A stretch of 55,949 nucleotides of DNA, filler included, from Sphacelaria rigidula (Eukaryota), in the NCBI GenBank assembly GCA_964200075.2. It is 3 parts of 3 records of this genome, joined end to end, with 100 filler letters (N's around TTAATTAATTAA, not from the genome) between each part and the next. Parts side by side here need not be neighbours in the genome. Positions count along the whole stretch, not along the records: positions 18,685 to 37,267 come from CAXNAA020000833.1; 2 more parts are not named here. One strand, written 5' to 3'. Under the pieces are notes generated by a model. It was not told the origin of the DNA and searched no databases. It saw only the letters and a list, made by a program, of their open reading frames with translations. Below, piece by piece: positions 12,812 through 54,600 of this stretch (its first letter is position 1; every line of letters begins with the position of its first letter). Position numbers and translations under genes: made by a program.

Positions 12812-12844
12812 CATCACACGCACGCACACACACACAAACATGCA

Positions 12845-12887
<43 letters not shown>
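12812..12887. repeat. (CA)n microsatellite
   Basis: Direct reading. Confidence 0.95.
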
Positions 12888-12889
<2 letters not shown>

Positions 12890-16381: not shown

Positions 16382-16822
16382 ACACGCGATCTTACAAATT
16401 GGGGATGAACCTTTTCTTTGGGATGAGAAACCCGGAGAATCAAACTTTTCGTATCCACACCAAGCCTTCGGAAAATGCTTCCATTTCTTCACCTACTGAT
16501 GGCTATTGACAACTGCCACACGCCATAGAAATTTGGATTTCAATCACCGAAATGTTGGGGTCCTCAGTGAAAACACAATTTTGGGGAATTTCGGGTGTCC
16601 GAACGGACGCCAAAATGGTTCCGAAATGTTTTTTCATCTGGGTCCCCAAACTTCCGGTGATCGAAATCCAAAGTTCCATTGCGTGTAGCAGTTGTCAATA
16701 GCTATCAGTAGGTGAAGAAATGGAACCATATTTCGAAGATTTCGTGTGGATGCGAAGATTTTAATTCTCCCAGTTTCTCGTCCCCCGAAGAAAATCCATC
16801 CCCAATTTGTAAGATCGCGTGT
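16382..16822. mobile_element. ~440-bp palindromic MITE (copy 1), TA flanks
   Basis: TA|ACACGCGATCTTACAAATTGGGGATG ... CATCCCCAATTTGTAAGATCGCGTGT|TA; long internal inverted arms. Confidence 0.88.
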
Positions 16823-18584
16823 TATGTTCGTTTCTCTCGCTTGCTTTGTAAAAGCAACGGAGCCCACGCGTCAACAGTATGTGCGACCAACGCAATGTCG
16901 CCCGCCCGATCATCACTACTGCAATGCGTCAAGGTGATTGGTATACGTCCTCCGGTCTCGCGCTTGCCGAACAGGCAGCACGCGTTGCTCTTTGTTACCG
17001 CAGCACCGCGGGGTAATGCATAGTGGTTGTGCTCAACAGTACAGTCACTTTGTGTATTACCGGTCGTGAACACTAGACGCAACTCAGATGCGGATTTCAT
17101 GTGCAAGCGTCTTGACATTCCTGATTATTGAACTGTGACATTTTCCAGCTGCTCACATTGCACACGGGTCTCACATCGTACATGCTATCACGTCGCACAT
17201 TACGTGTGTTGGGGGGGCTGTGTTTCGGATGCATACACCCTCTTCAAAGCGACAGTTGACATTACTCCCCATGTCATGCCGGTGAGCGCGTGGTAGTGTA
17301 TTGGTATGCTCTGCCTCATAGGTGACTGAGAAGAATGTGCTCTGTGCAGGTAGGTTTCTTCATTCAGAAATCCCATCGAGGGTAACATTTTTTTCTCTGA
17401 TAATAACCGAATGATCCTCTCCCGTTTTTCGATAGGTTTGCTCTGTATGAATTCGTACGATGGGAATGCCACCATGGTGCAGTCAACATTACTTGTCCTA
17501 CTTGACATATCTCGTATCCGCTAGACTACTGAAAGTAGCTCCACTTTACCAGTATGATGCGGGGGCTTACCATAGTGCGGTGATCTGGGCCTTCAATCCA
17601 CCTTATTCTGCTGAGATCCCAAACAGGATGTACAGTGGGTGTCCAGGATAGCTTTTAGTATACGCGGGGATAGGTAAAACATGTGCATCATGAATCATTG
17701 TGGTAATGTGTCGATAGTCCTGCAGCAGATGAAGATCTACACCGTTGCCTGTCGTGAGTTCGTCTCTCATTGGCGAGGGGCTCCCCTTCTTTCTTATACG
17801 GTGTTTTGTTGAAGGAACGCTCACGGGCTTACAACTACTCAAGAACAGCTGTACAGGGTCGCCCTCACACCTTGTGTAGTTCATTCACGCCGGACAAACG
17901 TACACAGGGTCGCTAAAACCTATCCGAATGGTGTACAGGGCGCGGTCTGCACAGGACACCAAACTGTACCGTTACCTTGAATTCACGGCGAGCGCAGTTT
18001 TCATGCGTCGACACCACACAGTACCCCATCAGGCATGATTCATGTGGCGTCGTATATGTAGTCTCACCACTGTGGCTTTTGGATACCAGCGGCAGCCACG
18101 GCAGAACACAGCATAACGGCTCATTGGTACCATTAGAATGATGACAATCCGGTGCCTTTGCGTATCGAATCTCTTGTGGAGCCTGTCTTACATGCGATCA
18201 GAAGTCATGTTGATCCAGTACAAACACCAGAAGAGAGTAAAGTTGCGGGGGGTGAATGCTTCCTTTACATGCCGGCGCGTAGCTGACAAGGGGTTTTGAA
18301 ACATCTCACCGCCGATGCACGGACCGCGCAGCCATAGTGCATGTGCAGTCGCGCTTGACCTGGGGTGCTGTGCAAGCTAGAATACATTGCCGACGATGTT
18401 TGGGACACTGCTCTTGTCAAGGGGCCCCATATCGGGAAATCCATGCACCACTCTCCCCCTTCACCGCGCAAACCTCACTCTGGGGTTGGAGGAGGGGGGG
18501 GGGGGGGGGGGGTACCCGGTTCAATGGGGGGGGTCCCCCCTGATCGCTAGATGATGGCCCCGCCCGTTTTTGCGGGTAACGGCG

Positions 18585-18684
18585 NNNNNNNNNNNNNNNN
18601 NNNNNNNNNNNNNNNNNNNNNNNNNNNNTTAATTAATTAANNNNNNNNNNNNNNNNNNNNNNNNNNNNNNNNNNNNNNNNNNNN
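18585..18684. other. Artificial contig linker (N44-TTAATTAATTAA-N44)
   Basis: Exactly 100 bp. The 12-mer gives stop codons in all six frames. The flanking contigs are 18584 and 18583 bp. Confidence 0.97.
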
Positions 18685-19642
18685 GCTGGTGAAGCGGTGG
18701 CTTCAGCGGAAGCTGTCACCTACACGATCAATTTGACACATCACTTGATCGCAACGACGTAGTCAGCCCATTGCAACAAAAGATCCCCTGTTTCAGGAAA
18801 AAATGGTTAGTGCCTGACACAGTTTTAGTTCCGAAATGCCCCCAGGCGTAAAAATGCTTTGTGCGGTATCTCACCAATCAGACCGCCGAATTCCTCGAAT
18901 GGGGTACTGTACGGTAGCTGCATGCACAGGACGTGTGCGCGAGCAAAACAAAATTGCCTGTAAGGAACGCTAGAGCATCCACTCTGAATCCGATATTACG
19001 CTCTGAATCTCACGAATATGGCGTTCCATGCACCGGAAAACTAGGTCGCCAACAGGAATCCGAATGTGATGATTCCGAGTATTTGATACTTCTTCACCGC
19101 ACCCCGGTGGTCAAATGGTACAACGGAAGTCATTAGGTCGGGAGGATGCGACTTCGATCCGCGGCATGTACATGTGAGTTTCCTTCTGAGCAGTGCCGAT
19201 TTCTGATGTCGAACACGTGAGAGCGCAAGCAGAAGAAACTGCATTTTTCGAGAGTCGACGCGGCGCGGGAATACTGACACATTCCATTAATTACATTACA
19301 CCGTGAATCGTGTGCCGGGGGAGAGATGGGTCGATTTATCAAGCCCACGGGTTCGTCCCGTGGAAGGGTAGGAGTTTTACGTGTGCCAAAAAACAAATTA
19401 TTACGAGCCGTGGATTCGTGAGTCAACAGCGGAGTTGAAGATGGTAAGTGCCTCAGGTTGTCATGCTCGTGGCACCGGCAACGCCTAGCTGTTCGACCGG
19501 GCGAGTTTCCCCACCGCGATCAAGGGGTAGCCCTAGCCCGGACATTTGGGTAGTGTGACGATGCCCCCAACGTAGGTACTGCACCTACAATGTGCACCCG
19601 CGACAACGTAACTAAAATCGTTGAAGCCATCGCGTATGGTAC

Positions 19643-22600
19643 CTTATAGTTGAACTCATCCCATGTGTACATACGCATGCGCTTTTTCCTGGGAAGAACA
19701 CGCGAAACCCTCTCTTCGCCATCTGTTGAAACGAAGTCTTTGTTGACGACGTTCATCAGCCCGAGCACGCTCGCCGCACCCTTTCTCGAAAACTAGGTAC
19801 GCAATGAGCGACACAAGCGTGGGCAGATGAAGCGGTTTGGCAAAGGTCAATGTCCCGCCAAGATACCATGTTAACGAGATGCGCCATACAGGATATGGCA
19901 TGTACGCCCTAAACGCGTAAAGTCGAACATCCCGCCAAGTACTCTTAATGGGTTGGTTCTACCTTCCAATTGCAACGGTGTGTTTTGCCACCCCAAAACA
20001 TTATTGTTGCCTGAACAGGGCACCGAGTGACGTTTGAGTGGTGTCGCCTTCCGAAACTGGGCGGGGATCAATTTTTCATTATACTTGGGCACCAGCATGG
20101 AACACAGTTGCGTTTCTGTTTGCGTCTTTCACAACTCCCAATGGGAATATGTTCCCATGTCCCCACGCCTTCCGGAACAGCTCAACTTCCGTCCATCGCA
20201 GAGAACCCCTCGCCGATTTTGCATTCATCAACCGCGTATCAATTGTACACAAATTTTCGGTCTCACCCGCCGCATTTGTTTTCTGGTTTCGAAGATGGCG
20301 AAGGCCACCACCAAGAACCCGAACCAGAATGGGAAGAAGAGGTTTCGCACCAGCCCGAAGTTGGCAAACTGCGCACACGGTATGCGATGGCCACGAACAA
20401 CGCAAAACGCGGAAGGGAACATAGCACATTTTTCACGAATACTGAAATGAGACAAAGCGGAGTATGGCCTGATAAATCCTGTGAGAAAGTGCTCCCGTGT
20501 CGTGTCCCGCCTCGAACTCCGCGATATTAACTGTCAAAAAGGGATCCATGATGATTATTTCTTGCCCTGAACTGGCCCTGTTGCAGGTTAAGGGCAACGT
20601 CCGGTTAAGGGTAACTTTTCGGTTAAGGACAAGCGGTCCGGATTAAGGGCAAGCGGTCCGGATTAAGGGCAAGCGCCCCTGACTATGGGGAAGCGCCCCT
20701 GACTATGGGGAAGCGCCCCTGACTATGGGGAAGCGCACCTGGGTAACGGGAAGCGCTTCTGACTATGGGGAAGCGCACCTGGGTAAGGGGAAGCACACCT
20801 GGGTAGGGGGAAGCGCACTTGGGTAGGGGGGAGCGCACCTGGATACGGGCAAGCGCCTCTGATTATTGACATCTGCCCCTAGCGACGGAGAAGCGATACA
20901 CGTATCGTCAACATATTCCTGAATCAGCCGAAGAATGCCAAACTGTCTAGGGCGTGCTAAGGACTCACAATACGTGTGTCTCTGGCTCGTGGGCACACGA
21001 TATAGGTGTCTCTCGCTTGTGGGCACGCGATACAGGTTAGGGTTAGGGTATCGTGGGTCCTTAGTGTAGTGCGTGAGAGGGTCGCGTGCTTAGAGGACCG
21101 CGCCGTAGTTCAAAACACTTCAGAATCGACGTTTTTCAAAACCAATCCGGCCAGTCCCTGCAGGTACTACGCCCCTGACCATAACCCCGACACTAACCCT
21201 AACCCTAACCCTAATCATAGGGATATTCAAATTTAACCACAGGGATATTCAAATTTCGATGTGGTCCTCTAAGCACGCGGTCCTCTCACGCAATAAATTT
21301 AGCACGCCCTAGAGAGTTTGGCATTCTTCGGCTGATTCGGGAATATGATGACGATACGTATATCGCTTCTCCGTCGCTAAGGGCAGATGCCAATATTCAG
21401 GGGCGCTTGCCCGTATCCAGATGCGCTCCCCCCTACCCAGGTGCGCTTCCCCATAGTCAGGTGCGCTTCCCCATAGTCAGGGGCGCTTCCCCTTACCCAG
21501 GTGCGCTTCCCCATAGTCAGGAGCGCTTGCCCCTAATCCGGGCCGTTCCCCCCTAACCAGGGGCGCTTCCCCATAGTCAGGGGCGCTTGCCCTTAATCCG
21601 GACCGCTTGCTCTTGAGCGAAAAGTTGCCCTTAACCGGGCGTTGCCCTTAACCTGCAACAGGCCCGCGTCCATTTATTTGACGTTTCAAATTGAATTAGA
21701 GTTTTGCCTGGAGAATATCCGTCACGTTCAGGTTTCGATGAGCGGTGACATATGTCGACGGACCTATCAAGGTGAAAGTCATCCTGCATCCACTAGATCT
21801 TCCCCGTGCTCTCGTAATGTCAAGTGTCACGCGTCTAAGCATCAGATCGGGATGATATATTTCGCTTCTGCAAGAATACGAATTTAACACAAGCCAACCG
21901 CGACACCGCAGCACTCAGTGTACAGAGTTGGCACCTCGATGTCGATATCTAGGGTACTGAAGAGGAGACTGTCGGTCGAAGACACCAGCTCCACACCTCG
22001 GTAGCACTGCACCACACCAGCCAGGTAGGCAAAGCGCCCCGCCCAGATATGAAGGTGCTTGTTCATCTGTAAAGGACACGCGGTGAATCAGCGGTGGGAT
22101 GTGGTGAATTGAAAATGTACCCTACATGTCGATAATTGCTATTGTTACTTACTCCACTCCCAACAAAAACGGGATCGTTGAACAAACAGACGGCTGAGAA
22201 GCCGAGCCACGAAATCCGACGTAGCACACTTGGCAAGTCCATCATCGTGCAGAAGGCAGGAAACGGGGTTTGTGCGGAAGCGACAGGAATCCTCCGAAAC
22301 TGCATTTGAAATCCACCCCAAGACGGCAATTACTGATGTTCACGCTCGATTCATTCTGGAAATAGGTCGCCCTTCTCTCCACTCAACGCTGACCTGCCTC
22401 ATGTGGAGGCAAAGTCCCGAATCGTTCAACAGGGAGGAAGACATGAAACTGTGTGCGGCATGGTGCTCATGCAGAGAGGGATACCTGGTTAAGCAGAGAG
22501 AAGTTGCAGTATTTTCCCTCCAGTGCCTTCATGCGCAGACAGCCAGAGATCACTAGGGTAGCCACGGCTACGATGAGATAAATACCCCATCTATGCGCAG

Positions 22601-25600
22601 CAGAATACAACCACATTATAGCGGGAAACGATGGAGGGAATCAGAACCAAGCGTCTCGATGGCTGTCTTTAGTTTTGTAGACGAAGAGTTCACCGCGTTA
22701 CCTGGGAAGACAAAATTCAAGCTTAGTACTACCTTTTAAGAATCTTTGCTACAGTCCATTGCGGGCGTTACGATTGCTCTCATTCTACACTTGTATGACT
22801 CCACAAGTGTTGCGGGTGCCACGTGACGATGTGGATGGGGCACTGACATTGCGTGTTCGGAGGAATGGTCGCCGCTGGTTGAGAAGATAGCCGTGATGCT
22901 CAGTGGAAGCACCGTCTCGGAAGCGACGATCATCAGCTCGGCGTGCCTTCGGTGCCACGCTTGACCCAGTATTTCGTCACCCTTATGGTACCTGTACGTC
23001 AACCAAATGAATAGCGAGGCATCTAAACACAGGCTACATGCCTACTGCGCCACAGTTCTTCCAGGTTGTGAGGAATACTCTAGGACATGCTACTTTTTTC
23101 GTAAAGCATCAGAATGAAAAACCTCTTAAGAGCAGCACAACCGGTAGTACTGACTCACGAAGAGACCGTTCAGACGGCCAAATCAAGGGGTGGACTACGG
23201 TCGTACACCACTTTCAGTACCGAAGATGAGCCTAGAGAAGTCTACTTACGGGTTGTTTCGCACCCCATGATGTTGAACCATACCCAGTTAAACTTATGAT
23301 CAGTCAAAGACACGGGGTATCAGTTGCTGTCATATTACGGATCCCTTGGCTCCACCCGCGGGAAACTTCATTGTTCCGTCCTGAAAAAACTTGAATCAGC
23401 CACGGGGACAATACGCCGCCGTGTTCATACACCATGAAATCATATTTCCGGGCGGCAACAAAGCCTACAGTGTACCTTGCGAAGTAGATGCCTAGAGGAG
23501 CAATGAGCATCCACGAGAATAGCATGAGGCAGCCGTGGAGCAGGTAGAAGTTCATATCGTCTTCGCACACCTGTCAACGGCATATGTATCGTACCGGCTT
23601 ATCGGAACTTGGTGAAAGAAATTATCGGACATTCTTCTTTTCGAGTTCGACCCAAACATTGTACACGGGTCCGAGGTCAGATGTTGTGGCGTTTGTTAAT
23701 GTATGAGTAATTCCGCGTCAATGGAGGTCAACCTCACTTAACGCTTGAGTCCTGGCAATGAAAAAGTGCTGATCTCGAGATTCTGTGTTGAGAACAACAT
23801 ATGGTTGATTGTTTGCGGCTTCCAAGGACCACTATTTCGCCCAAGGCGTGTTTTTCAGACCCGCGACCGCTTCCAACTGGCGGTGAATCGCGTAAATGCT
23901 GTATTGCGCCTCAACCCTTCCACGTGTGGTGAGGGCATTGCTGTGCTCGGCCACACTACCTTGTTCCTGTGATGTGGCTTAGCACGCTTGCCAAGTGTTG
24001 GGCGGGTACGACCTCCAGACTCCAGCACAAACATATTCCGATGGGGTGCGTCACCTGTACCAATGTGTGCCAAGGTGCCACACGGGACTAAGTATGTAGA
24101 AAATATACAGGTGGTGCTGATTTTTCTTGTATGGCTTTAAGAGGCCGCGGTGCTGGTTTTAGCTGTGTGCATAAAGTTGAACACACTAGACCTGTTGCCT
24201 CCCCTCATTCGATAGAACTAATCCGACCGCACTGGCTAACGCCGAGCTATCCTTGAAAGTTCGACTGCTTAAAGCGGAGGTGGTGAAAGCTCCTTTGTAT
24301 GGGTGTCCCACATGGACGCTACGTTCTGAGGACTTCGACAGTCTGCGCACTGCCCATCACAAGCTCTTGCTGCGAGTGGTTGGATTCCGCAGGAACGATC
24401 GAAATGGCTACAAGATTCTTTCGTACAGAGCGGTGCTCGAGATGACCAACTGCGAGCGTATCGAGACGACTATCCGCAAACGTCAACTCTGGTTCGCGGG
24501 AGCCCTTGTCCGGCAGAAGGACACACGCCTTCCCAAGCGTGTCATGAACGGTCGGCTTTCCACACGAGGACCCAAGGAGGTCGGCTGCCCCCCCGAGCAA
24601 TGGGGGGATACCCTAAAGGAGAACCTACGTGCGCTAGGGGCTGTCCCGCACAAAGGAGCCCGACCAAAGTGGTTCGTCTCTACGATGTAGAGGTTAACGA
24701 TGCATGCGATTGGGTCACTGCGGCGAAGGGCCTGGGCAAATGGCATATTGGAGTCGAAAAGGGAGCGGAAGAGTTTGAGGACACGTGGCGACGCGCGGAC
24801 AAGCGAGAATCAGACCGCCGTCACAAGCGAGAGGCTGCTGCGTCGAGGGCTGCCAATAAGAAAATCCTGTCCTCTCATGTCGGTTGTTGATTATGTCCTT
24901 AGTCGGTGGCTCTGCGTTTCCCACTGGTTTGTGTCTGCATCTCCTTTGCTGCCCTGAATCCCTTAAGCCTCTTTTCCCCCCCATCGTTTCATTGTTTTTT
25001 ATTTTATTTGCTTTGTACTTTCCTCTTGTTTTCCTTTTTCTTGTTTTAGGTCGGTCATTTCTTTCTGTGCTTTGCTTGTGTTGACTTTTTATTACTTTTC
25101 TTGTCACGACTTAGTCTGCTATATCGTTTTGTTCTACCCCTCTCTTTTTTTGTTTCATTTTTTCCTGTTCCTGTTTTTTTTCTGCTCCTTTTCTTTTTCC
25201 TTAGAGCGTGTTTCAGTTTCGTTTTGTTGTGTACGTTCATCATGAGACCACGGCTGGACCCCTGAAGGGTCAGTTAAAGTGCGGCAATCAATCAATCAAT
25301 CACTGGCGCGACATTTTTGGTGCAAGCATGACATCTGTCGGTGTTTTCTGTGGCCATCCGCCCTCGAAATGGTTGTCGTCGGTATTTCTTTTTCCATTTT
25401 TTCTTCTTTGTCAGCGCTTGAAATAATGGGGCGTCTGGACCGGTGACGGGAGGGGAGGGTTCCCAAAGGGTTAATATTTGCTTGGTTGAGTAATCCTTTC
25501 AATCGCAATATGATCATACTAGGGCGGCATTCACCACGGATGTTTTTTCTGTACTGCTGGAAAACCATTGCATTATCTTGTGCTCCGGCAGTATTCATCT

Positions 25601-28600
25601 ATAGCGATTTGCGGCTGAAAGGAAAGCCTCCCACTCAGTTTTTAACATTTACAATAAGAAATCGCTCTTCGCAATGATGCAGAGCCGCGAAAACCGGGCC
25701 CTACGCAACATCACTGTTTTTACAGCTGTATCTGACTACCTCAAGCAACCCCTCCTGCGTGGCACGAGAAGAAAGTGCCCCCAAACCACCAGTTGAAGAA
25801 TCAAGCGCCACATTTCGTTGTCGTGAGGGGTAAGTGGCATAAATAAAGTGGTTTGGATAGGTGATGCGTCCCTGTATGTGAAAATATACGCCTTCTGAAG
25901 GGTAGCTACAGGGTTCAAACGTGTTCTGCGGACAAAACGTGCCACAAATCACCCAACAGCCGTTCATCGAAATTGAGGATGGAGCTTTGATTGAGGATGA
26001 GAACACGAAATAACAGAATCTTCGTATCCACACCGAATCTTTGAAATATGCTCCAACTCCTTCACCTACTAGCAGCTATTGACAACTACTATACGCCCTA
26101 CAAATGTTGATTTCGATAACCGAAATGTTGGGGTCCTAGATGAAGAGACAGTTTTGGGGAATTTAGGTGATGCGATCGGGTCGCCAAAAATTCCCCGAAA
26201 TTGGTTTCTCACCTAGGACACCGACATTCCGGTTATCGACATCAAAATAATATTCATGGCATGCAGTACTTGTCAGTAGCTACCAGTTGGTGGACGAATT
26301 TCGAAGATGTCGTGTGGACACAAACAAGATTTTAATCCTCCGGGTTCTCATCCTCAATGAAATACTCCATCTTGAATTTCGATGATAGGCTGTTACCTGC
26401 CGACAAGACGGCGCCATGCATCGCATCATCTTCATTATAGTGCTTCTTAACGAATGCGCCCGCACGTTTTGCATAGATGGCACCACCAAGCGAAACACTG
26501 TGAAATTCCTGACGGCTACAGTAGCTTGAGATTGTCACGTACCGCCAGTAGGCGGAGACGCTTTCTGAATGATACTAGTTTTGTATCTTTAAATTCAGAA
26601 CGGAAATCCTCGTGGTTTGCCGAGCTTCAGTGATCGCGTTCGCACATTCCACGCATTATCGAACGGCGCACGGTAAAATTCTGGCGAGGTCAACTTATCG
26701 CCGTTCTCATTTAACGGTAACGTAACACATGTTAGCTGTGAATGACGCTGATGTTCCTCGATAAACCGGTGCAGAGTGACAGTGCTCGTGGCGGTAGAGC
26801 TTCAGCAATAATCCTTGCACGTTGTACGCACCTCAGTTATCGTTGCATTACCGAAATGAACGGACGACGCACCCCGGTTTGTATTTGGATGCTGCCCCAG
26901 TCCTTTACCTCCCCTGTAAGCGTAGATGATGTCGGTGAAACGATCGGCGTTGATGTCCTCTAGTACATCGTAATCCTGGAAGGACGGTGGGGATACGTGC
27001 CACGGAGCGGACGGATGGAGGGCAATAAACACGACATCAAGTGTAGGGGAGGTATATGTTCTCATGCCATGTGCCAAACCTCACACCAACAATTTAGCAT
27101 GTACACATGTATTCTAAGTTGGATGATGGGGGGAAATTATAAGTAAGCAGCTAAATGTGAGCACAGCACAACAAGGATAACACGAACACTAGGGTCGTAC
27201 ATTGACCCGAAGACGACATGTACGTTGTACCTGCGAATCTAGCTCGGACGAGCATCGAAGGAACGTAACCGACGTCCAGTCTCCTTCGATGGCCACGCTC
27301 TCCACTTCCAACTGAGGATTTACATCATCCTCGGGTGGCACGCTGCGACTGCAAGGTGCAACGGAGAGCAGGTGTTGCGGGAAGAGTTGCGCCTTCTTTG
27401 ACAAGCCCTCTTTACTTTCCGTGTTATCCGCGTGTTGCTGGGAAAGGATTTCGTGGGAACTGGGGACCCTCCTGCGATCAAGCGATGCGAACCTCCGGAT
27501 TGATCGTAACAAAGTAGGTGGCTTTACAGTGCACTCATATATCACTACTCCGCCATGTGCCTCGTTGCAAGTGAGGTGTCCGCGTATTTAGCATGCTGAG
27601 GACTGCCTCAGCAACACACGGTCGATCGCCCGTGTTGGAGACCTCAACCCCACTGAAATCGTCTCATAGGAAACGATTCTGCTAGCAAGTGGAAACGTAA
27701 GTCAGATTCAGGCCGCTACACCTCTGTGCTACAACTGTTGCCCGTGCCGCAAGCCGTGGATACATCAGCGGTAGTCCCACTCGGCAAAACATACCAATAC
27801 TCAGCATTCCACCATGAACCACCAGCTATGAGTACCAGCGCACACCACTGATAGATGTGGGACGCACTGGGCTCTCCATATGGTCCCCCCACCACACAAT
27901 TTAGAAGGGGACTTGGCGGGAACACCGAAAACATCAGCTGCACTTTCGCAGAGTGCTTTCCACACCACATAGGTCGCGAACATACCACAGTTTCGTTTGG
28001 AATTCTCGGGTGTTCCTACCGCTTTATCGGCTGTCGGTCGATGCACTCTGCTGTTGGTCCATCTTTGACCTCACAGATGACGAAGTCTTGTGCTTTCACC
28101 ATTTCCGTACCCCCGAACCCAATACCCTGCAAAACGGAAGGACAGGACAGAAAATCGCCGAAGATCACTCAGCCATGATGGCGAGGTTTACGCGCACTTT
28201 TATATATCATATCCAAAGTGTAACATAGCTTCTAATATCGGCGCACGCCAGTACGTTTCTCTGACTGCTATATTCAGCTTCTTGCGACCATAACGTGCGG
28301 AGTGGCGTCGAGGTGCGTCAAAGCCTGACATATACTCACGAGCACCAAGCTCCCAGCTGATTTCCCAAAAGCCAGAAGTCTTCATCATACGTTTCCTTGC
28401 CCGAGGTTGGAGATACGATGAGTTGGGTGGTTACATAAGTACTTATACCTATACTTCGTATTGTGAACAACTGTACTTCATAACCATTTAGAGCCGGTCT
28501 TCTGGGGTCGAGATCGTGGGGCTTCCACTAATTTTGGATACGCACACGTCGGAGTCATTCTTGACAGCACCGGACGTGGCGAAACTCGATAAAGAGTATG

Positions 28601-31600
28601 AAGGCAAGAAATCGACAAAGCATACCTGTTCATACAGTGGGAACAAACATGTTAGGCTTTAGGCTTTCAGTTCGCAACCCCAAAAGTGACTGTGGAAGAA
28701 GAAACATGAGCGAAATGCTTCATATCGGAGCAACTCCCGGTAATACCACAAGCATTCAGTGAGGAGTACCTCAGTGGTCATGTAACTCACGATTGAAGCC
28801 GAATTACGTATGTAAACCAACTTCCACAGCCTTGTAATTTCTTCCCGACTTCGTGCTGCAACGTATACTAAAACGGAGCCTTCTGTGCCGTCACCGACTA
28901 CCATAGTATAGAATATATCAACCTCCTAATCCGACGGCTCCTTTGCTATGAATATGCATTGCCAGGGAGCAATGTACCTCTGGGCGATTCGGGTCGCGGC
29001 GTTGTGGTTCTTTCACTCCCAGCGTCAAGGAAGCCAGTAATATGCTGTTGTTACTCCCAGGACTCCATACACGCCGAGGGTAGTAGCGATGGAGAATGTT
29101 TGCTCTCGGTGGGGCCATCTTGCAGGGTACGGCAAAAGGTTGTACCGCTGAAACTCAGGACAACAGTACTAGCAGCGGTTTCAATCGAAAACGCGCTATC
29201 GACCGGGCGATGGGCCGTTTCGACGCAATTTCGTTTCGTTCGTTCACGTACATTAGCACGTGCTTGGCCCGAGGGACCCTCCTCATTGCGTGGCACTTTT
29301 GGGGGGACTAGGGTTAGGGTTAGGGTTAGGGTTGTCATTCAGGGGGAAGTACTCCACACCCTGGACAACAGAATACACAGTCAAAAGGTGTACTGCGTAC
29401 AGTATCGACTATTGCGCCTATTTCAACAGACAATAGATTCCATATTGTACGTAGTACACTTTTTTCAAATGGAATCTATTGTCCAGGGTGTGGTGTACTC
29501 ATGATCATGCATGCCATAGTCATAAGACCATTGACTTCGCCAGGAGGGGGGGGGGGGGGGGGCGTACTCATTCGTTGCTTGCCTTAGTCGTTTGACCGTA
29601 GACCACGCATCCCTTTCGAGACGGAGCCGACGAGGGGGGGAACGACAAACCCCACTTATTGTGTGAATCCAGCGATAGGCGCTAGACGGGCATACCTAAC
29701 ACCAATAATAATTTCCTGATCAGTAGAGCTACAACACCAAACCAACATGCATATTTGAGCGGGTCGGAGATGAACGAACTCACCAACATGCCCTCATCGT
29801 CGATATGTTTGCTGCTGATGGTGAACGCAATGACCTCAGCGGGTCGCACCTCCCACCCCAGGATGTAGCTGTCCACGAGAATGAACAATATACAATGGAG
29901 ACGAAGGTTAATGGGCATCATCACCATGATATTAGAACATGCTATAGTAACGCCGCTCTGAGTGCGTGCAGAGGCACCAGCACACCGACGTGCCAACAGT
30001 GAGATCCACAGCGGCAAGATAAACTCAAAGACCCAGAGAAGCAAGGTTCATGTTTCGGGACGAAACATGTCGCTGGGAGAAAATATTGCCGGAATCACAA
30101 GACTCTTAACCGAGAGGAAATGGCGACAACGAACAGATATGCATCTTGGGAACAAGCGCAAGACGGTGGCGAGACCAAGAGTAACCCCGAAAAATGGCGA
30201 TCAGGAATACTGTAGTGCCAACTGCACTCACTCGTCTGCCAGAGCGACCGCGTTCCTCTCCGTCGTTGTGCAGTCGGCGACACAGACCGTAATTTCGGGG
30301 GTTGTAAAGACAGCAAGGGGAAAATCCGTCATGTCCAAATTCAGTGAGATGAGATCGTGAAGCGTGGTATTCTCGACGTCCTCGATAGGTCGGGAGTGGT
30401 GGTGGTAGTGCCGATCTCCTATGAATGTTCGGAACATTTGTTCGAGCCACGCTTCCTGTCCACGAAAACGCACACGGCGCAAATGCGGTGCCACGGGGGG
30501 CAAGAACAGAAAATAAATACTTTATGTTTCCATAATGCAGGTAGTGTGAATCCTCAGCGACGAACTCGAAGGCACTTCCACTGACTTCTGGTCCAGCGAG
30601 ACGCAGCTAGAGGGTAAGCAATGCTGGGTAGAGCTATCGCGCACCTTGCATCAATCTCCTCGATTTACTCTCGAACAGCTGCGAAGATGCAAAAAAGTGT
30701 ACTGATTCCACACACCCAACAACGATACACAACATTTCTTCAGCCAAACACAACAATGATCCCTCGTTCCCAATCGACCGCCGAAATGGGATGGTTGCCC
30801 TCGAGCCCTCTGGGCAATAAGTCCAGCGTTCCCAAGTTCTGTATGAGCACCGTTCTCCACCACGCACACCTTCAGCAAGTCTCCAAGGATCCCTCTGGTG
30901 CCGCTGTCGCTGCCCTCCACCAGCGCACCCGTCACTGCATCTAGTGCGGAAATATCGCCACCGTATGCAGCGTCCAAGAGACCAGCTACGGTGGAATCGT
31001 CTGTGATGTCGAAAATTGTTTCGGCTTGGGGCAGACCGTACGCTTCCCGTGCATTATTATACACGGGGACTCCTATGCGAAGAGCGCCAATGGGTTCAAG
31101 AGCGCATGGGGGTTCGGGAGGAGGTAAACAGCAATGAAGTTCGTGAGTAATGACGCCTTACTCGATATAGAGATCAGCTGAAATAGAAAATACGACGTAT
31201 CGAATAGAGCATGGGCGTGTTTCCCCTGTTCCTACAGTCAGATAGTAGTCGGTACAATCCGCAGCGCTGACGATAAATAATATACATCAACTCTGTCCAT
31301 ACCGTGTTTGTGAAGTATGCAGATGTAAGCACAGATTAAACACGAGTACTCCACATCGAATCTCATTAGTACATGCAGTCGAGCAAAGAACGAAATCCGA
31401 GGTCCAACATCGCCAGAGTATGACACCAAACCGTTGATCGGATCGACCAGAACGACGCCTACCGTGATCCCGGCCTCTCTGCACAGCGTCGACAGGAAGC
31501 TTGAAGAGGGGCGAGGTGGTAGAAAGTGCCGCGGGGAAATGTGAATCGATCCGCAGGGAAGGTTCCAGCACGGCTCCCCTCAAAATAGCCGCCAGCCCGT

Positions 31601-33024
31601 TGCGGTCGATGAGACCGCCCACATCTTTGCACGCCTCCGCCAACTCGATCATATCCTGAAAATGAGAAAACCAAATATAGAAACGAACGATGCAATTGAC
31701 GAGGTTATGCGGAACACGACCTGAACACACAAAATCGTTGACACTGGTACCAATCGCAGCTCAGCGCTGTCTATGTCATTCACCAACGCCAAAAAAGCAC
31801 TCTAGCAGTGCTTGCACTGGTGCTTTCGCCACATGAGTGCTAGAAAATTAAAACATAGATGCCCCCCCCCATCACCCCACCGCTTTCAACGCCTTGAAGT
31901 TTTCACTCGTTTACCCATTTCACCTCGTCAGCTGGCTCGTAGTTCTCGGTTACAATCCTCGTGAAGGGGGGAATGGCTGCCTCGAAGGCAATCGCGCCAA
32001 CCGTCAAAGCAAAAACGTCCGCACCAGGGTTTATGGTGTAGTCGTAGTGCTCCGCCGTCAGCAGTTTCCTCGTGGATCCCCAGCCCCATCTCCTTGTACC
32101 CGAACCTGGCCCTCTCTCGGCCAATTCTATTTGTCGCAGTTGTCCGTACCAGTCGCGCCGAATACGAGCCCCGTACCTATCGTCGTCATCCCATAGAGGG
32201 GAACCATGGCCTCTGGTACTTCCCTCCGATTCTTGGTGTGAGTTTGTCCCAGTATGCCCAAGGCCTGTTTGGTGTTTGATGTCGTCGCCCAGCACTTGGG
32301 ACCGTAACAGCTGCTGCTGCTGCTCCTGGGTGCCAACATCCCCTGTCGAGGCGCCAAACGTATCTCGGCTGTTGTGGTTGCCATGGTGCTGGTTTCGGTC
32401 TTCTTCAAGGGCGCCTCCCGGCCCAGAACGCTCTTGCCCACGCGGAGTACCTCGTGTCAGGCGTCGGTTTGAACTGGATCCATCGCTATCTCCGGTTTCG
32501 AGAGACGATGCTGTAGTCTGGGACGCACTAGTCGTGTCTGTAGCGGACAGTGCGGATATGACCAAAGGCAATGCCTTGTTCAACCAGGTGATGAAGCCAT
32601 TTAGGTGACCGATTTATTCCATCTGCATCATTCTGTATTTAACATCTACATACTTCACACACATGGTGATATATGCTTGATTCACTCCGGATCAAGCCGC
32701 TGCTCTCAAGCTGCTGAGTACATGACTATGGATTCACCGATGCGATTCCCTCGTATTTTAGAGCTCGACTGATACACATTCGCTCGTCCGTACTGCAAGT
32801 GCTCTCCACAGAAACATTGCGGCAATACCCAGAGATACTACTCAAACCGCTTAGCTACCAAGCACGCAGTTACAGAGTCAGTACTCCCTGCGCGTACCGA
32901 CGTATTGATTGTCGTCGTCAAGATCAACGACGACCGAGGTTTCCAGCAAACGAATGGTGAAGTCGTGCTGCACGACGTGTTGGTAGCGCGCGATCGTCCA
33001 GCCACGACACGCCTGGTAGATATC
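19643..33024 (-). CDS. Partial multi-exon gene: heme peroxidase-like domain + DOMON + cytochrome b561 + start of cytochrome b5-like domain (membrane redox fusion protein)
   Basis: 15 GT-AG exons splice in frame with no stop (2544 nt, 848 aa): 33024-32898, 32537-31924, 31655-31463, 31072-30870, 30455-30232, 29868-29784, 28126-28020, 27348-27231, 26975-26832, 23570-23476, 22991-22848, 22590-22485, 22066-21935, 20368-20267, 19792-19643. Peroxidase motifs: DIYQACR..IARYQH, VDAVQRGRDHGVPVYNNAREAYGL, EQMFRTFIGDR. DOMON motifs: GIGFGGTEM, GQHPNTNRG. Four b561 His. b5 N-terminus RMYTWDEFNYK. Start and stop exons not found. Confidence 0.88.
20267..23570 (-). CDS. Exons 10-14 of the fusion gene: cytochrome b561-type transmembrane domain
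   Basis: LLHGCLMLFSWMLIAPLGIYFARY, WHRRHAELM, SEHAIWG and KHLHIWAGR give four His at b561 positions, followed by a fifth TM helix FPFWFGFLVVAFAIFE. Confidence 0.87.
20579..21660. mobile_element. Non-autonomous foldback transposon with TGT...ACA ends and 5-bp TSD GGCCC (Ginger-like), intronic
   Basis: GGCCC|TGTTGCAGGTTAAGGGCAACG ... CGTTGCCCTTAACCTGCAACA|GGCCC; ~380-bp inverted arms with tandem 20-bp GACTATGGGGAAGCGCCCCT units; central TTAGGG/CCCTAA tracts. Confidence 0.8.
24225..25302 (+). mobile_element. 5'-truncated RTE-clade LINE (ORF2 C-terminus, T-rich 3' UTR, (CAAT)n tail), intronic and antisense to the host gene
   Basis: ORF 24253-24690 reads LYGCPTWTL..HHKLLLRVVGF..IRKRQLWFAGALVRQ..RLPKRVM, a typical post-RT region of RTE elements; frameshift near 24680, continues to 24890; tail 25285-25302. 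Confidence 0.9.
25330..25470. mobile_element. Solo piggyBac-like terminus (…TTCCCAAAGGG|TTAA)
   Basis: GGG end followed by TTAA; homologous to 37765-37905. Confidence 0.55.
25956..26393. mobile_element. ~440-bp palindromic MITE (copy 2), intronic
   Basis: ACAGCCGTTCATCGAAATTGAGGATGGAG ... CTCCATCTTGAATTTCGATGATAGGCTGT; internal arms shared with copy 1. Confidence 0.85.
26832..29868 (-). CDS. Exons 6-9 of the fusion gene: DOMON domain
   Basis: YILGWEV..IAFTI..GMLGIGFGGTEMVKAQDFVIC..CIDR..WTSVTFLR..DIIYAYR..GQHPNTNRG. Candidate heme ligands Met and His are present. Confidence 0.85.
29355..29492. mobile_element. 138-bp MITE with CACACCCTGGACAA TIRs and an imperfect 8-bp TSD
   Basis: aagtactc|CACACCCTGGACAA ... 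TTGTCCAGGGTGTG|gtgtactc (flanks match 6/8). Confidence 0.75.
29493..29627 (-). repeat. Dispersed repeat modules A and B, adjacent (other copies: A 14168-14241 and 47182-47253; B 18-72 and 14764-14817)
   Basis: A: GCTCCGTCTCGAAAGGGATGCGTGGTC..ATGAGTACGCCCC. B: GGTCAAT..TTATGACTATGGCATGCATGATCATGAGTACACC. Confidence 0.8.
30232..33024 (-). CDS. Exons 1-5 of the fusion gene: C-terminal half of an animal-type (peroxidase-cyclooxygenase family) heme peroxidase-like domain
   Basis: QRGRDHG-x-P-x-YN-x-x-R-x-x-x-GL signature; AYGGDISALDAVTGALVE; GDR motif; TLHDLI..N..P..VF domain end. Confidence 0.88.
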
Positions 33025-33378
33025 CTGGCAAAGGCGCGACCCCGTAGCACAAGGGAACGAAACATAGCTGAGAGGGGATCACGAAGGAACATCAAGGCTG
33101 GGGTGTCGTACCTTTTGTCGCCAAGACAGCGATCCATTTGACGTGTTTTCTGCGGTCTGATTGACGACGCGGTGATATGAGAGCATTTGAGCAATATTGA
33201 GCAGTGGGTTGTTGAGATCACGGTACATCGGTTCGGCCGTGATGCGTGTATCCACACACCACAACCTGTAATTGGTGCGAACCCAGCGCGAGACGGGCGG
33301 CTTTGATACGCAGGGTGCTACTCAAGCACCGTTTGCGTCGCTGAGTATGCGACGGACAGGCCACAGGTAGCAATATTC

Positions 33379-34991
33379 CACACCCTGGGCAATACAATAT
33401 GTAATATATATTGCCCGCTCAATATGTGTACGCGTCGGGTGGTCGATATACATCGGGCGAGCAATATGATGGCACGAGAGAGGGTCAATATATACTGGGT
33501 GGGAAATATGTCAAGGCTCGCGACATGCAATATATATCGACCGGAAATATATCACGATAAGCGCCACCTCAATATATATTGGCCGAGTAATATGTTGGTG
33601 CGAGAAGGCACCAAATATGTATTTGTCGAGTAATATATTGGCTGCCACACGAGGTCAATATATATTGATGATTCAATACACTCAACATCCCAAGCGCCAA
33701 TATATATTGCCGCCCCAATATGCCGGGCGTCAATGCGTCCAATATATATTGGGCGTACAATACACGAGGGAACGGATGGTCACAATAAATATTGATATCG
33801 AAATATATTTTGATTTTCAACATGTAGATTGCAAAGTGTATTGGAATTAGTATGGTGGGCAACTCTATGTTCGCGGGCGCCATTGAAAGATGCATCATCA
33901 TATGCCGAAAACGCTCAATACATTCCTCCGCGAGTGTGTTTAATATATATTGGCTGCACAATACCTATGCGATGAGCGTGCGCAATATATATTGGAAAAA
34001 ATATATATTTTGCATGGTTTGCGTTCAATAAGTATAATGGTAACAATATGCTACGCATCGCTTCGACTCAATATATATTGACACTTCAATACATACACGA
34101 CCGGCATGCACAATATATATTGAATGTTTTATTCCCGGAGCAAAGGTACGCCCAATATATATTGTCATACATTACTTCATGATCATGACACGAGCAATAT
34201 ATGTTATCGCTCCAATGTCTCCGAGGACATTTCAAAACAATACATATTGAAAGGACAATATTTGCGCTGGCTCCCATACAAAATATTGGTATCATATTGG
34301 AACATCTTGTATTGTCCAGGGTATAAGCAACACAGCCCCGGTGACCACAGGGGTACGAAAAGGCACATATCGACCCGCGTTTTCTGTCATCGTGGTGTTT
34401 AGCCAAGATATATTAATTACATGCTGGGAAGGCGATGGGCGACCCCGCACCGGTGGCCTCTTAGGTATCAGGAGGCATATACACCAGGTCGCCTCTTCTG
34501 TCACCATATTTTCAAACTAGTACGTGTATGTATATTTATATATGTCAAACGCATTCGACTACTCTACATAGTAATGCACGCGAACTTCTACGGCTCCCTT
34601 TGAAGCTTTTCCCAATCTGCACGGGCTCCGGCATCCATCGCGTCTGGAATTTTCTTAGAGCATATACCATACTTATGATATCCATATATTATATTGATCG
34701 GCTAATACATTGGCACCCACGTAGATCCAATATATATATTGACCGGTCAATATGTTCTCACCATTGCGACCCTAATATATATTGGTCGTGCAATATGCCA
34801 TCACACACACTGCCCCAATATATATTGATGGGACAATATGTGTTCAACTCCACAGCACCAATATATAATGGGCGCGCAATACGTGTGCATTCCAAGGGTA
34901 CCAACATATATTACGCCGGCAATATATCGCGAAATTCCAATATGATCGACAAATATATGTATTGGGGACATATTGTATTGTCCAGGGTGTG
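33379..34991. mobile_element. 1.6-kb non-autonomous TIR element (23-bp TIR, 8-bp TSD; hAT- or P-like) carrying a phased repeat-spacer array
   Basis: caatattc|CACACCCTGGGCAATACAATATG ... CATATTGTATTGTCCAGGGTGTG|aaatattc (flanks match 7/8); extra internal right-end copy at ~34303-34322. Confidence 0.8.
33402..34925 (+). repeat. Regularly interspaced array, unit CAATATATATTG-N6-CAATAY-N18/19 (42-43 bp period) with non-repetitive spacers
   Basis: Palindrome starts at 33402, 33444, 33486, 33528, 33570, 33613, 33656, 33698, 33740, 33783; 33941, 33983, 34026, 34069, 34111, 34153, 34195, 34238; ~34685, 34728, 34773, 34816, 34859, 34902. Confidence 0.85.
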
Positions 34992-35324
34992 AAATATTCC
35001 CCTGGCAATACGAGGCTTGTCATGACTTGTGGGCAAGAATTGGTCACAAGTGTACGAATTGAATGTTGTATTCAGGCCACCTCGAGCGTGCTACGAGCTG
35101 GGCCGCCCAAGAAGCCACCAGATTTGTTGAACGCATTTTCTTCGCTCAATATTGGATCGTTTTCGATAAATTTTTGACACAATGTACAGGACGTATCTGC
35201 GAATACCTGTTCTGAAATGTTCTGTGGCCAATAACTCACGGAGAAAAACAAAAAAGACAGGGGATGAAAGATTGTGTATTCGCACATTCGTCCTGTACAT
35301 CGTGTCACAATTTCATACGTCGGG

Positions 35325-35812
35325 ACGAGCACGAGTGTGACTCGTGGCACTCGCACTCGTTGGGCTGCTCGTTGGCCGTGAAAATTCATAGAGCGAGCAC
35401 TCAAGTCATTGCTCGCTGTGGAGAAAATTAATAGGGCGAGCAAACGAGTCATTGCTCGTTGGGGAAAAAAATAATAGGGCGAGCACTCGAGTCATTGCTC
35501 GTTGGGGGGGGCGTACCCATTTGTTGTTGCTCGTTGGGGGAAAATGTTAATGGGGCGAGCACTCGAGTCGTCATTACTCGTTGTGGGAAAATGTTAATAG
35601 GGCGAGTTTTCGAGTCATTGCTCGTCGGGGAAAGAAATAATAGGGCGAGTACTCGAGTCATTGCTCATTGGGGAAAAAATGAATAGGGCGAGCACTCGAG
35701 TCATTGCTCGTTGTGGAAAAAATGAATAAGGCGAGCACTCGAGTCATTTCTCGTTGTGGAAACAATTAATAGGGCGAGCACTCGAGTTATTGCTCGTTGT
35801 GGAAAAAATTAA
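35325..35812. repeat. ~38-41-bp minisatellite (TAGGGCGAGCACTCGAGTCATTGCTCGTTGTGGAAAAAA..AA), left block
   Basis: About 12 tandem units, read directly. Confidence 0.9.
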
Positions 35813-36859
35813 CCCCTTTGGGACCGGGCCCCCAGAACGATCAACGAGGCTGGTTAGGAATGACGTGTCTGACGTCTACACGAAACAGTGCCACGTTGAT
35901 CAAAATCCGCGTATGTAACCGCAGGATTATGAGGAAGAGCGAAAGTTTCATCCAATCTATTTTCAGGTGCAGGGTGCGCATTAGGTAATGTACATCTGTA
36001 GCGAGCAGTATGGGTTGCGGTAGATAACTTTCAAAAGGATGCGGCGACCAGTGGGCCGCCCGCCACTTGTGGCCTTGGATGATGATACTGTCCCCATCAC
36101 CTTGCCACACAGCCCTTTGTCGTCAGGGTGGGCCGCCATTTCCCTCTTTGTTGTATGCAACAAATTCTCTTCAAAGGGCGTTGGCGTTGCGGCGCACATA
36201 CATACGATACAGTGCAGTACAGTACAGTACAGTAAGTGCAGTACGCCTCTCCGGCTGCAGCAGCAGCTGCCGCTGCATACTCCCTTCCACGTTCTAGGCA
36301 GTTCTCAGCGATGGAGATCAGCTGCCTATACACAGCTTGTTTATCCTCGCCCACAACATATACATATTCACCGTGTTCTGCAAGTCATCGGCAGAGGGAT
36401 AACCATGATTCATGACGGTAGCTCCTTTATCTTTCGACGGCACACCTGGGTTCAGTGCCTCATGAAAATGACCACATTGTGGCATGTACACTCCTTCCCG
36501 GTTTTCCCACTCCACCCTGTGTTGGTGTAATTACTACGTTTTAGTAAAGGCTGGCGACCCAAAAAAACTCCTGGGAAACCCCGGGAACGCTATACTGAAT
36601 GCAAGTAATACGATAAGCCATGCTCCGAGCACCCTGGTTTCAGAAACCTGGGAAGGCTTATCTGGGCCAGTGATAGGGCTCCACACCATCTTGGCAGTGA
36701 CATCACACTCGGCAACAGTCCCCGCGCTGGTCGTTCGGGTCTGGTCGACAAATTTCGCATCGCCGTGATTGGGCAGTTCGCTCCCTGACTTATGTTTTAC
36801 AATTTCACGAAGACATGGTCAACCTCGTGTTAGTGAGGGGTCGGTCCCATGCAAAAGGG
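35813..36859. mobile_element. Non-autonomous piggyBac-like insertion at a TTAA in the satellite
   Basis: TTAA|CCCCTTTGGGACCGG ... CGGTCCCATGCAAAAGGG|TTGA; no transposase inside. Confidence 0.65.
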
Positions 36860-37267
36860 TTGATAGGGCGAGCACTCGAGTCATTGCTCGTTGTGGAGAA
36901 AAAAATAGGGCGGGCACTCGAGTCATTGCTCGTTGTGGAAAAAAATAATGAGGCGAGCATTCGAGTCATTGCTCGTCGTGGAAACAAACTAATAAGGCGA
37001 TCACTCGAGTCACTGCTCGTGGTGGAAAAAAATAATGAGGCGAGCATTCAAGTCATTGCTCGTTGTAAAAACAAGTGATGACTCGAGCACACGAGTCATT
37101 GCTCGTGGTGGAAACAAACTAATAAGGCGATCACTCGAGTCGTTGCTCGTTGTAAAAACAAGTGATGACTCGAGCACACGAGTCATTGCTCGTTGTAAAA
37201 AAAAGTAATGACTCGAGCACACAAGTCATGCTCGTTGTGTTTTCGAAAAGCATCCACGAGTGCACTC
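36860..37267. repeat. Same minisatellite, right block, running to the contig end
   Basis: The unit resumes exactly after the insert at 35813-36859. Confidence 0.9.
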
Positions 37268-37367
37268 NNNNNNNNNNNNNNNNNNNNNNNNNNNNNNNNN
37301 NNNNNNNNNNNTTAATTAATTAANNNNNNNNNNNNNNNNNNNNNNNNNNNNNNNNNNNNNNNNNNNN
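37268..37367. other. Artificial contig linker (N44-TTAATTAATTAA-N44)
   Basis: Identical 100-bp linker. The flanking contigs are 18583 and 18582 bp, consistent with size-sorted concatenation. Confidence 0.97.
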
Positions 37368-54598: not shown

Positions 54599-54600
54599 AA

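What the first reader, a model, noticed from the sequence alone, without database searches (positions are those of the whole stretch)
19643..33024. DUOX-like redox machine from different parts: peroxidase-like + DOMON + cytochrome b561 + cytochrome b5-like in one chain
Seen: 15 exons splice into 848 uninterrupted codons, ordered peroxidase-like domain, DOMON with Met/His ligands, b561 with four His, a fifth TM helix, then the b5-like start YTWDEFNYK. Known: DOMON-b561 (CYBDOM/FRRS1-type) proteins move electrons across membranes, and DUOX joins a peroxidase-homology domain to a NOX module. Inference: a single-polypeptide electron wire from a cytosolic b5 (possibly followed by an FAD/NAD reductase beyond the contig end) to an extracellular peroxidase-like head. 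Possible roles are cell-wall cross-linking, ROS or halogen chemistry, or iron reduction. I know of no biochemical characterisation, though similar architectures may exist in databases.
Basis: partly seen in the sequence, partly recalled or inferred. Interest (0 to 1): 0.75.

Follow-up and report, generated by a model that had tools for sequence, protein, structure and literature searches.

The report
Brown-algal peroxidase-capped membrane electron wire
This is part of a real brown-algal gene for one long membrane protein that appears to carry electrons from inside the cell through a chain of haems to the outside; the design also occurs in diatoms, early-branching fungi and other protists, seems unstudied, and here its outer 'peroxidase' cap has lost its haem-binding histidine.

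Summary
Observation confirmed: 15 GT-AG exons on the minus strand give 848 stop-free codons, collinear at 46-50% identity with 1,440-1,840 aa brown-algal proteins carrying peroxidase, DOMON, b561, b5 and FAD/NAD modules. The gene is cut by both contig ends; a recent duplicate in this genome (C1062) has the b5 and reductase exons. Contigs of three probable RNA runs splice exons 2-5 exactly, but come from a ~95%-identical copy. The architecture is widespread (diatom, xanthophyte, chytrids, Glomeromycota, Rigifila) and sits in databases under automatic names; seven literature searches found no description. This scan noted it before in three windows of other genomes, described as fungal. The eight wire-haem ligands are kept in 57 of 57 aligned proteins (one gap), whereas the peroxidase proximal His is Glu here and absent in 10 of 10 close relatives. 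Best reading: an NAD(P)H-fed, five-haem trans-membrane reductase (a self-powered CYBDOM) with a haem-less cap; not a DUOX/NOX member. The acceptor is untested.

The parts
32898..33024 (-). Exon 1 of the model (not the first exon of the gene): peroxidase-fold helix; model aa 1-42
   Evidence: (An_peroxidase E 8e-4)
31924..32537 (-). Exon 2: about 155 aa low-complexity insert, then the proximal helix; Glu228 (31983-31981) stands in the proximal-His column
   Evidence: spliced in run contigs
31463..31655 (-). Exon 3: peroxidase fold, ends in the QRGRDH motif
30870..31072 (-). Exon 4: peroxidase fold
   Evidence: (An_peroxidase E 1e-6)
30232..30455 (-). Exon 5: end of peroxidase fold and linker to DOMON
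29784..29868 (-). Exon 6: DOMON, first strands
28020..28126 (-). Exon 7: DOMON, haem ligand Met491 (28102-28100)
27231..27348 (-). Exon 8: DOMON
26832..26975 (-). Exon 9: DOMON, haem ligand His586 (26891-26889)
23476..23570 (-). Exon 10: b561 helix 1, His617 (outer haem, inferred)
22848..22991 (-). Exon 11: b561 helix 2, His653 (inner haem, inferred) and His683 (outer haem, inferred)
22485..22590 (-). Exon 12: b561 helix 3; carries Q697L and W702C against the duplicate and the family
21935..22066 (-). Exon 13: b561 helix 4, His726 (inner haem, inferred)
20267..20368 (-). Exon 14: fifth membrane helix
19643..19792 (-). Exon 15: cytosolic linker and first 9 residues of the cytochrome b5-like domain
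18685..19025 (.). Dispersed repeat at the contig end (39 other places listed at about 90% identity among 40 scored candidates); begins about 56 nt before the point where the duplicate has its b5 exon, so the rest of the gene is cut off here

Best explanation
A fragment of a brown-algal member of an undescribed eukaryotic family of single-chain trans-membrane oxidoreductases: signal peptide - peroxidase-fold cap - DOMON - five-helix cytochrome b561 - cytochrome b5 - FNR/b5-reductase-like module. Most likely path: cytosolic NAD(P)H -> FAD -> b5 haem -> inner b561 haem (His653/His726) -> outer b561 haem (His617/His683) -> DOMON haem (Met491/His586) -> a one-electron acceptor at the cell surface or in a secretory lumen, most probably Fe(III)/Cu(II) chelates or quinones. 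It is a CYBDOM that carries its own NAD(P)H supply instead of relying on ascorbate. In this clade the cap has lost its haem ligands and acts as a structural or docking domain, as in human DUOX1. Shown: gene structure, domain order, ligand residues, folds (on a homologue), splicing of a near-identical copy. Inferred: haem binding, topology, direction of flow, the C-terminal modules of this very copy, the acceptor.
For: Exon model and homologue collinearity. Pfam on 9 close homologues: An_peroxidase 9, DOMON 8, Cyt-b5 7, NAD_binding_1 5. Duplicate C1062 holds exons 6-15 at 82-98% identity plus a b5 exon with both His (Pfam E 3.7e-12) and reductase exons with the RxY and G-x-M-S motifs. In 57 aligned proteins Met/His of DOMON, three b561 His and both b5 His are invariant, the fourth b561 His is 56 of 57 (one gap); FAD-motif Arg 53, Tyr 56. 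AlphaFold model of homologue P0036 (pLDDT 82): peroxidase fold (8s6c Z 41.6, rmsd 2.6, 488 aligned), DOMON/CDH-cytochrome (4zel Z 14.1, rmsd 2.6, 136; 1d7c Z 12.1, rmsd 3.1, 146), b561 (4o6y Z 13.1, rmsd 3.7, 162), five membrane helices. The CYBDOM HYP1, with the same Met/His and two His pairs, passes electrons across the membrane to ferric and cupric acceptors (PMC10784544, passages). Ectocarpus takes up iron by a reductive route (PMC3904714, passages). dN/dS 0.23 between this copy and C1062 over 394 codons. Human DUOX1's cap lacks the His ligand and shows no haem (PMC7794343, passages).
Against: No activity was measured and nothing here names the acceptor. The Ectocarpus paper assigns surface iron reduction to an FRO2-like enzyme, so that job has another candidate. 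A plain metal reductase does not explain why the cap is kept across eukaryotes, nor why 41 of 47 distant members keep the proximal His. The b561 structural Z (13.1) is at the level that helical bundles reach by chance (note), and Pfam b561 is weak. This copy's own b5/reductase exons were not found in the assembly and the spliced contigs differ from it at 4.8% of letters. The two residue-level structure checks (haem distances, pocket) could not be run.
Confidence: 0.5

Rival explanations
1. A NOX-independent ROS source: the same wire ends on O2 and makes superoxide/H2O2 for defence or wall chemistry done by separate enzymes (e.g. vanadium haloperoxidases, recalled), a functional convergence on DUOX.
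For: Same logic as DUOX: FNR-like module inside, two membrane haems, peroxidase-homology cap without haem ligands. Several copies: b561 exons on five contigs of this genome; four neighbouring gene models on one Undaria scaffold.
Against: The membrane part is b561-type, with one His on each of four helices, not the NOX arrangement that forms the O2-reducing centre. The outer haem is followed by a conserved DOMON haem, which in characterised relatives relays to metal acceptors. No EF-hand found by Pfam in 9 close homologues.
Confidence: 0.2
2. The cap is the terminal redox centre: the wire reduces a haem in the peroxidase fold, which then activates O2 or H2O2 for cross-linking or halogenation.
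For: Plausible for the wider family: proximal His motif in 41 of 47 distant members, both His in 19 of 47, including a Discosporangium protein. Fold, distal Arg and the TSxxD cation-site motif are kept in the close clade.
Against: For this gene the proximal column is Glu; 0 of 10 close homologues have the proximal motif or the distal His; N-terminal halves C3184, C6647, C19096 lack the distal His; a search of this genome with the His-retaining Discosporangium protein found only the known contigs (6 matches).
Confidence: 0.1
3. The family works as above, but this particular copy is a decaying duplicate: truncated at the repeat or silent, with C1062 the working gene.
For: Spliced contigs fit a copy about 95% identical, with poor cover at exon 14 where C1062 differs most (82%). 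Of 31 residue differences, 15 polarise to this copy, 6 to C1062, 10 unresolved (p 0.08), among them Q697L at a site that is Gln in 10 of 10 homologues. Its b5 exon is not in the assembly.
Against: 848 codons without stop or frameshift, all 28 splice sites intact, all six ligands in the fragment kept, pairwise dN/dS 0.23. The assembly is fragmented (27,214 contigs) and another paralogue (C4727) also breaks before its b5 exon.
Confidence: 0.2

Closest known systems
CYBDOM proteins (Arabidopsis HYP1/CRR; animal FRRS1/SDR2 recalled)
   Same: Extracellular DOMON with Met/His ligands joined to a five-helix b561 with two His pairs; His spacing 36/30/43 here, 34/33/36 in HYP1.
   Different: Adds an N-terminal peroxidase-fold cap and C-terminal b5 + FAD/NAD modules; HYP1 is fed by ascorbate, this chain is built to be fed by NAD(P)H (inferred).
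Dual oxidase (DUOX1/2, NOX family)
   Same: Peroxidase-homology cap outside (7d3e Z 37.7, rmsd 2.8, 494 aligned) that lacks the haem His; two membrane haems; FNR-like module inside.
   Different: b561 rather than the six-helix ferric-reductase domain; extra DOMON and b5 haems; no EF-hands; cap closer to cyanobacterial 8s6c and DdPoxA than to DUOX1. Some databases mislabel members 'Dual oxidase 1'.
Peroxidase-cyclooxygenase superfamily, DdPoxA (6erc) and cyanobacterial peroxidase (8s6c)
   Same: Fold (Z 40.6 and 41.6), QRGRDH and GDR-type motifs, distal Arg in close homologues.
   Different: Proximal His replaced by Glu, distal His absent in the close clade; membrane-anchored and fused to a wire.
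DOMON-bearing ferric reductases (eFRE clade of Naegleria, Phytophthora, Albugo; PMC3591440, passages)
   Same: NAD(P)H -> FAD -> membrane haems -> DOMON in one chain, in stramenopiles among others.
   Different: Those use the FRD membrane domain and have no b5 or peroxidase-fold cap; the paper does not mention b561 or Ectocarpus (0 occurrences).
Database entry UniProt D7G7J2 / CBJ27734.1 'peroxidase', Ectocarpus siliculosus, 1,490 aa
   Same: Same family and clade, 49% identity over the shared region.
   Different: Name only; no function found in print.

Membership tests
NOX/DUOX | Six-helix ferric-reductase membrane domain with four His on helices 3 and 5 | tested here: not met
   Five helices with one His on each of helices 1-4; NOX pattern from PMC1940245 and PMC7794343 passages; no Ferric_reduct Pfam hit in 9 close homologues.
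NOX/DUOX | EF-hand calcium module (DUOX) | tested here: not met
   No EF-hand family at E 0.1 in 9 close homologues.
NOX/DUOX | N-terminal peroxidase-homology domain | tested here: met
   Pfam An_peroxidase and fold match.
NOX/DUOX | Cytosolic FNR-like FAD/NAD(P)H module | tested here: inconclusive
   Met in homologues and in duplicate C1062; lies beyond the contig end for this copy.
NOX/DUOX | Makes superoxide/H2O2 | not testable with these tools
   Needs assay.
CYBDOM | DOMON with haem-ligand Met and His | tested here: met
   Met491, His586; invariant in 57 of 57; fold matches DBH DOMON and CDH cytochrome.
CYBDOM | Five-helix b561 with four His | tested here: met
   His617/653/683/726; five helices in the homologue model, best haem-protein matches 4o6y and 5zlg; Pfam b561 weak (1 of 9 close; shown for 3 of 33 distant, only best 5 families listed).
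CYBDOM | Two-domain build, ascorbate as donor | tested here: not met
   Four further modules present in the family; donor itself untested.
Active haem peroxidase (peroxidase-cyclooxygenase superfamily) | Superfamily fold | tested here: met
Active haem peroxidase (peroxidase-cyclooxygenase superfamily) | Proximal His (RxGH motif) | tested here: not met
   Glu228 in that column; 0 of 10 close homologues have the motif.
Active haem peroxidase (peroxidase-cyclooxygenase superfamily) | Distal His (GQxxxHD motif) | tested here: inconclusive
   Exon not in the window; absent in 10 of 10 close homologues and 3 of 3 N-terminal halves in this genome.
Cytochrome b5-like domain | HPGG and second His | tested here: inconclusive
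   Only the first 9 residues are in the window; both His present in C1062 and in 57 of 57 aligned proteins.

The most novel reading that the evidence does not exclude
The family is a second, independently assembled kind of NAD(P)H oxidase: an old eukaryotic wire (FNR-b5-b561-DOMON) whose ancestral end point is a haem in the peroxidase fold, reduced from inside the cell to activate O2. The brown-algal/xanthophyte branch lost that haem, as vertebrate DUOX did, multiplied, and supplies cell-surface ROS or reducing power in seaweeds independently of RBOH/NOX and FRO enzymes.
Probability: 0.2. Interest if true: 0.85.

Novelty: new variant of a known kind. Interest (0 to 1): 0.56.

Why it matters
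Trans-membrane NAD(P)H oxidoreductases of eukaryotes are usually taken to be the FRD superfamily (NOX, DUOX, FRE/FRO) and STEAP (recalled). Here is a multi-kingdom family that reaches the same design from b561, b5 and FNR parts, with all eight wire ligands fixed over very large distances, and it is hidden under labels such as 'peroxidase', 'Dual oxidase 1' or 'delta-9 desaturase'. For brown algae it is a concrete, multi-copy candidate for surface iron reduction or ROS output, testable in Ectocarpus and in oocytes. The natural pairs with and without the cap's His ligands make the old question of what a peroxidase-homology cap does on an oxidase directly testable. The window itself holds only a fragment of one copy.

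Tried and rejected
1) Reading the rest of the gene in window 1-18584 or 37368-55949: these are other contigs; motif scans and tblastn found no b5, reductase or N-terminal exons in the window. 2) An open frame at 33079-33321 (-) looked like the missing upstream peroxidase exon; no tblastn hit at E 1 and no Pfam hit: rejected. 3) Joining C833 to a 5' or 3' contig: no unique end overlap with C3184, C19096, C6647, C2521 or others; scores did not assign an N-terminal half; the b5-exon DNA search found only C1062 and the intron stub. 4) Single-sequence fold of P0036: pLDDT 33, unusable; repeated with a 58-row alignment. 5) No RNA holder is on record as RNA; the runs laid are guessed RNA. 6) Joints table was swamped by repeats and listed no splice joints; only the pieces and depth tables were used. 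7) NADH versus NADPH preference: b5 reductase (E 7e-4) and FNR (E 1e-3) score alike: undecided. 8) Literature: searches found no paper on this architecture; one search found nothing on the brown-algal burst. The library lacks most subscription papers (Iyer 2007 on DOMON architectures and the Zamocky peroxidase surveys were not seen); supplements were not searched. 9) search of earlier findings by sequence: nothing. 10) ESM Atlas structure search not possible (no model). 11) No complex prediction was run.
Full report
Observation. The window is three contigs joined by N-linkers; the finding lies on C833 (window 18685-37267) of a 244 Mb, 27,214-contig assembly. A search with exon 3 returned 37 proteins among 237 candidates; the named ones are brown-algal, up to 1,844 aa. 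tblastn with nine of them recovers the exons in order, and the model aligns with Ascophyllum P0025 residues 253-1027 at 46% identity. So about 250 residues are missing in front and about 640 behind. Pfam on those nine: An_peroxidase 9, DOMON 8, Cyt-b5 7, NAD_binding_1 5, Cytochrom_B561 1 (weak); on the single exons only 2 of 15 score, both An_peroxidase. The organism is a brown alga by these homologies and by the tree, an inference.

The missing ends. The genome holds several copies: b561 exons on C833, C1062, C4727, C23507 and C2521, b5 exons on C1062, C2521 and C12643, reductase exons on C1062, C17524 and C9971, N-terminal halves on C3184, C6647 and C19096 (lower bounds). C1062 is a recent duplicate: exons 6-15 match at 82-98%, with the same splice sites, 92% amino-acid identity and dN/dS 0.23 over 394 codons. 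On the same contig it continues into a b5 exon with both His (Pfam E 3.7e-12) and reductase exons. In the window copy the last intron matches C1062 up to about 56 nt before that b5 exon, then runs into a high-copy repeat where the contig ends. This copy's own b5 exon was not found; the assembly is fragmented, so this is not proof of loss.

Transcript. Four runs were laid: three guessed-RNA runs of one study and one genomic-looking run. In each of the three, a 6,189-6,321 nt contig carries exons 2-5 back to back at the predicted borders (exon 3 not listed for X2; the table is cut). Pieces for exons 6-15 were not listed, but depth per bin equals that contig's depth times the exon share: within about 5% in 8 of 12 exon-bearing bins tested, higher in 3, lower in 1 (exon 14), and zero in two intron-only bins that the genomic run covers. 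So one spliced molecule very probably spans peroxidase to the b5 linker, with 3,028 nt left for b5, reductase and UTR; this is inferred from depth. The contig differs from the window at 59 of 1,236 letters, and is weakest at exon 14 where C1062 differs most, so it is probably the C1062-type copy. Expression of the window copy is not shown. Independent support for one chain: Trinity-derived proteins of Rigifila (1,341 aa) and Tribonema (1,623 aa) carry the whole set.

Range. phmmer with P0033 over 1.84 billion representatives gave 71 hits at 1e-30 and 927 at 1e-10 (many will be plain peroxidases). I picked 33 long, low-identity proteins from the upper part of the 150 listed: An_peroxidase 33, Cyt-b5 32, a FAD or NAD family 30, DOMON 23 (best five families shown only). 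Of 20 looked up, 11 carried an organism: Discosporangium, Chrysoparadoxa, Tribonema, Seminavis, Rigifila, Cladochytrium, Lobulomyces (with Clydaea in its cluster), Spizellomyces, Sorochytrium, Blastocladiella, Funneliformis. Names are automatic: 'peroxidase' (Ectocarpus D7G7J2), 'Dual oxidase 1', 'Peroxidase mlt-7', 'delta-9 desaturase'. The ESM Atlas has a 179-member cluster with this domain set, possibly the query's own.

Cofactor sites. In an alignment of 10 close and 47 distant proteins (P0106, which has no b5, and P0131 were left out), DOMON Met and His, three b561 His and both b5 His are invariant, the fourth b561 His is 56 of 57, and the FAD-motif Arg and Tyr are 53 and 56 of 57. The window copy has all six ligands that fall in the fragment. 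The cap behaves differently: the proximal motif is kept in 41 of 47 distant members, the distal His in 21 of 43 with a residue there, both in 19; in the close clade neither, 0 of 10. Here the proximal column is Glu228; two relatives have Tyr. The sister group with Tribonema and Chrysoparadoxa also lacks the motif (FastTree support 0.92 on the whole protein, 1.0 on the shared region), while a Discosporangium protein keeps both His. Selection therefore holds the wire fixed and lets the cap's haem site go, which argues against the cap as the electron sink in this gene.

Structure. The spliced model itself was not folded. Homologue P0036 with a 58-row alignment gave pLDDT 82, pTM 0.62: a peroxidase fold (8s6c Z 41.6, 6erc 40.6, DUOX1 37.7), a DOMON sandwich (4zel Z 14.1, CDH cytochrome 12.1) and five helices whose best haem-protein matches are b561 (4o6y Z 13.1, Dcytb 12.8; NOX5 10.0), though designed helical bundles score 12.4. 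N-terminal hydrophobic stretches in P0027, P0028, P0031, P0091 and P0104, not in P0025 or P0036 at my threshold, and an odd helix number put cap and DOMON outside and b5 and reductase inside; this is inferred.

Mechanism. NAD(P)H to FAD to b5 to the inner and outer b561 haems to the DOMON haem, then to an external one-electron acceptor. The His pairing follows HYP1, where the same DOMON-b561 unit passes electrons from ascorbate to ferric and cupric acceptors (PMC10784544, passages). I put metal or quinone reduction at 0.5, ROS output at 0.2, a working cap at 0.1, and a decaying copy of a working family at 0.2. For the last: 15 of 31 differences from C1062 polarise to this copy against 6 (p 0.08), including Q697L and W702C. 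Ectocarpus uses reductive iron uptake, but that paper credits an FRO2-like enzyme (PMC3904714, passages).

Comparison and novelty. It works like DUOX or a ferric reductase but is not an FRD-family member: five b561-type helices, no EF-hands, extra DOMON and b5 haems (PMC1940245, PMC7794343, PMC3591440, passages). It shares with human DUOX1 a cap without the haem His. It contains a CYBDOM core but is not a two-domain CYBDOM. Seven searches found no paper on the architecture; I read passages only, of seven papers (also PMC8027222 and PMC6881991, which did not bear on it), no supplements, and subscription papers are missing. This scan noted the same design in three windows of other genomes, described as fungal; my reading was on record before I saw them. 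Verdict: real, a fragment of one copy, an undescribed but database-visible family; new variant of a known kind; interest 0.56.

Noticed in passing
window 18585-18684 and 37268-37367: N-runs around a TTAATTAATTAA linker join three contigs of nearly equal length (18,584, 18,583, 18,582 nt); neighbours across them are not real neighbours.
   Followed up: yes
window 20574-21665 (intron 13): Large palindromic element, arms up to 316 nt at 88%, built of 20-nt tandem units; MITE-like.
   Followed up: partly
window 24190-24890, + strand (intron 9): Frames that resemble the C-terminal end of a non-LTR reverse transcriptase (by eye, recalled); no Pfam hit.
   Followed up: partly
window 32070-32537 (exon 2): About 155 aa low-complexity insert in the peroxidase fold, ending in a basic motif (RRRL in most homologues, Arg375/Leu377 invariant in 9; RKLL here); could be a processing site, untested.
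   Followed up: no
G000:C4727 with C23507; C6647 with C19096; C833 with C1062: The paralogues come as close pairs, suggesting repeated recent duplication (or retained haplotypes); Undaria has four neighbouring models on one scaffold.
   Followed up: partly
proteins P0047, P0050: A second brown-algal subclade has Tyr in the proximal-His column; Tyr can ligate haem in catalases (recalled).
   Followed up: no
ESM Atlas rank 2: A mostly ciliate cluster (54 members, score 0.77, lead only) has b5, DOMON and FAD-binding families without a listed peroxidase family: possibly the wire without the cap.
   Followed up: no
window 49773-50267 and 52616-53047, + strand: Frames that look like exons of another gene (hydrophobic stretches); no Pfam hit.
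   Followed up: partly
window 7236-8930 and 11081-12242, - strand: Broken frames that look transposase-like by eye; Pfam gave nothing clear.
   Followed up: partly
window 33300-37267: Repeat-rich stretch upstream of exon 1 with AT-rich and about 46-nt tandem-like units; high depth in all runs.
   Followed up: no
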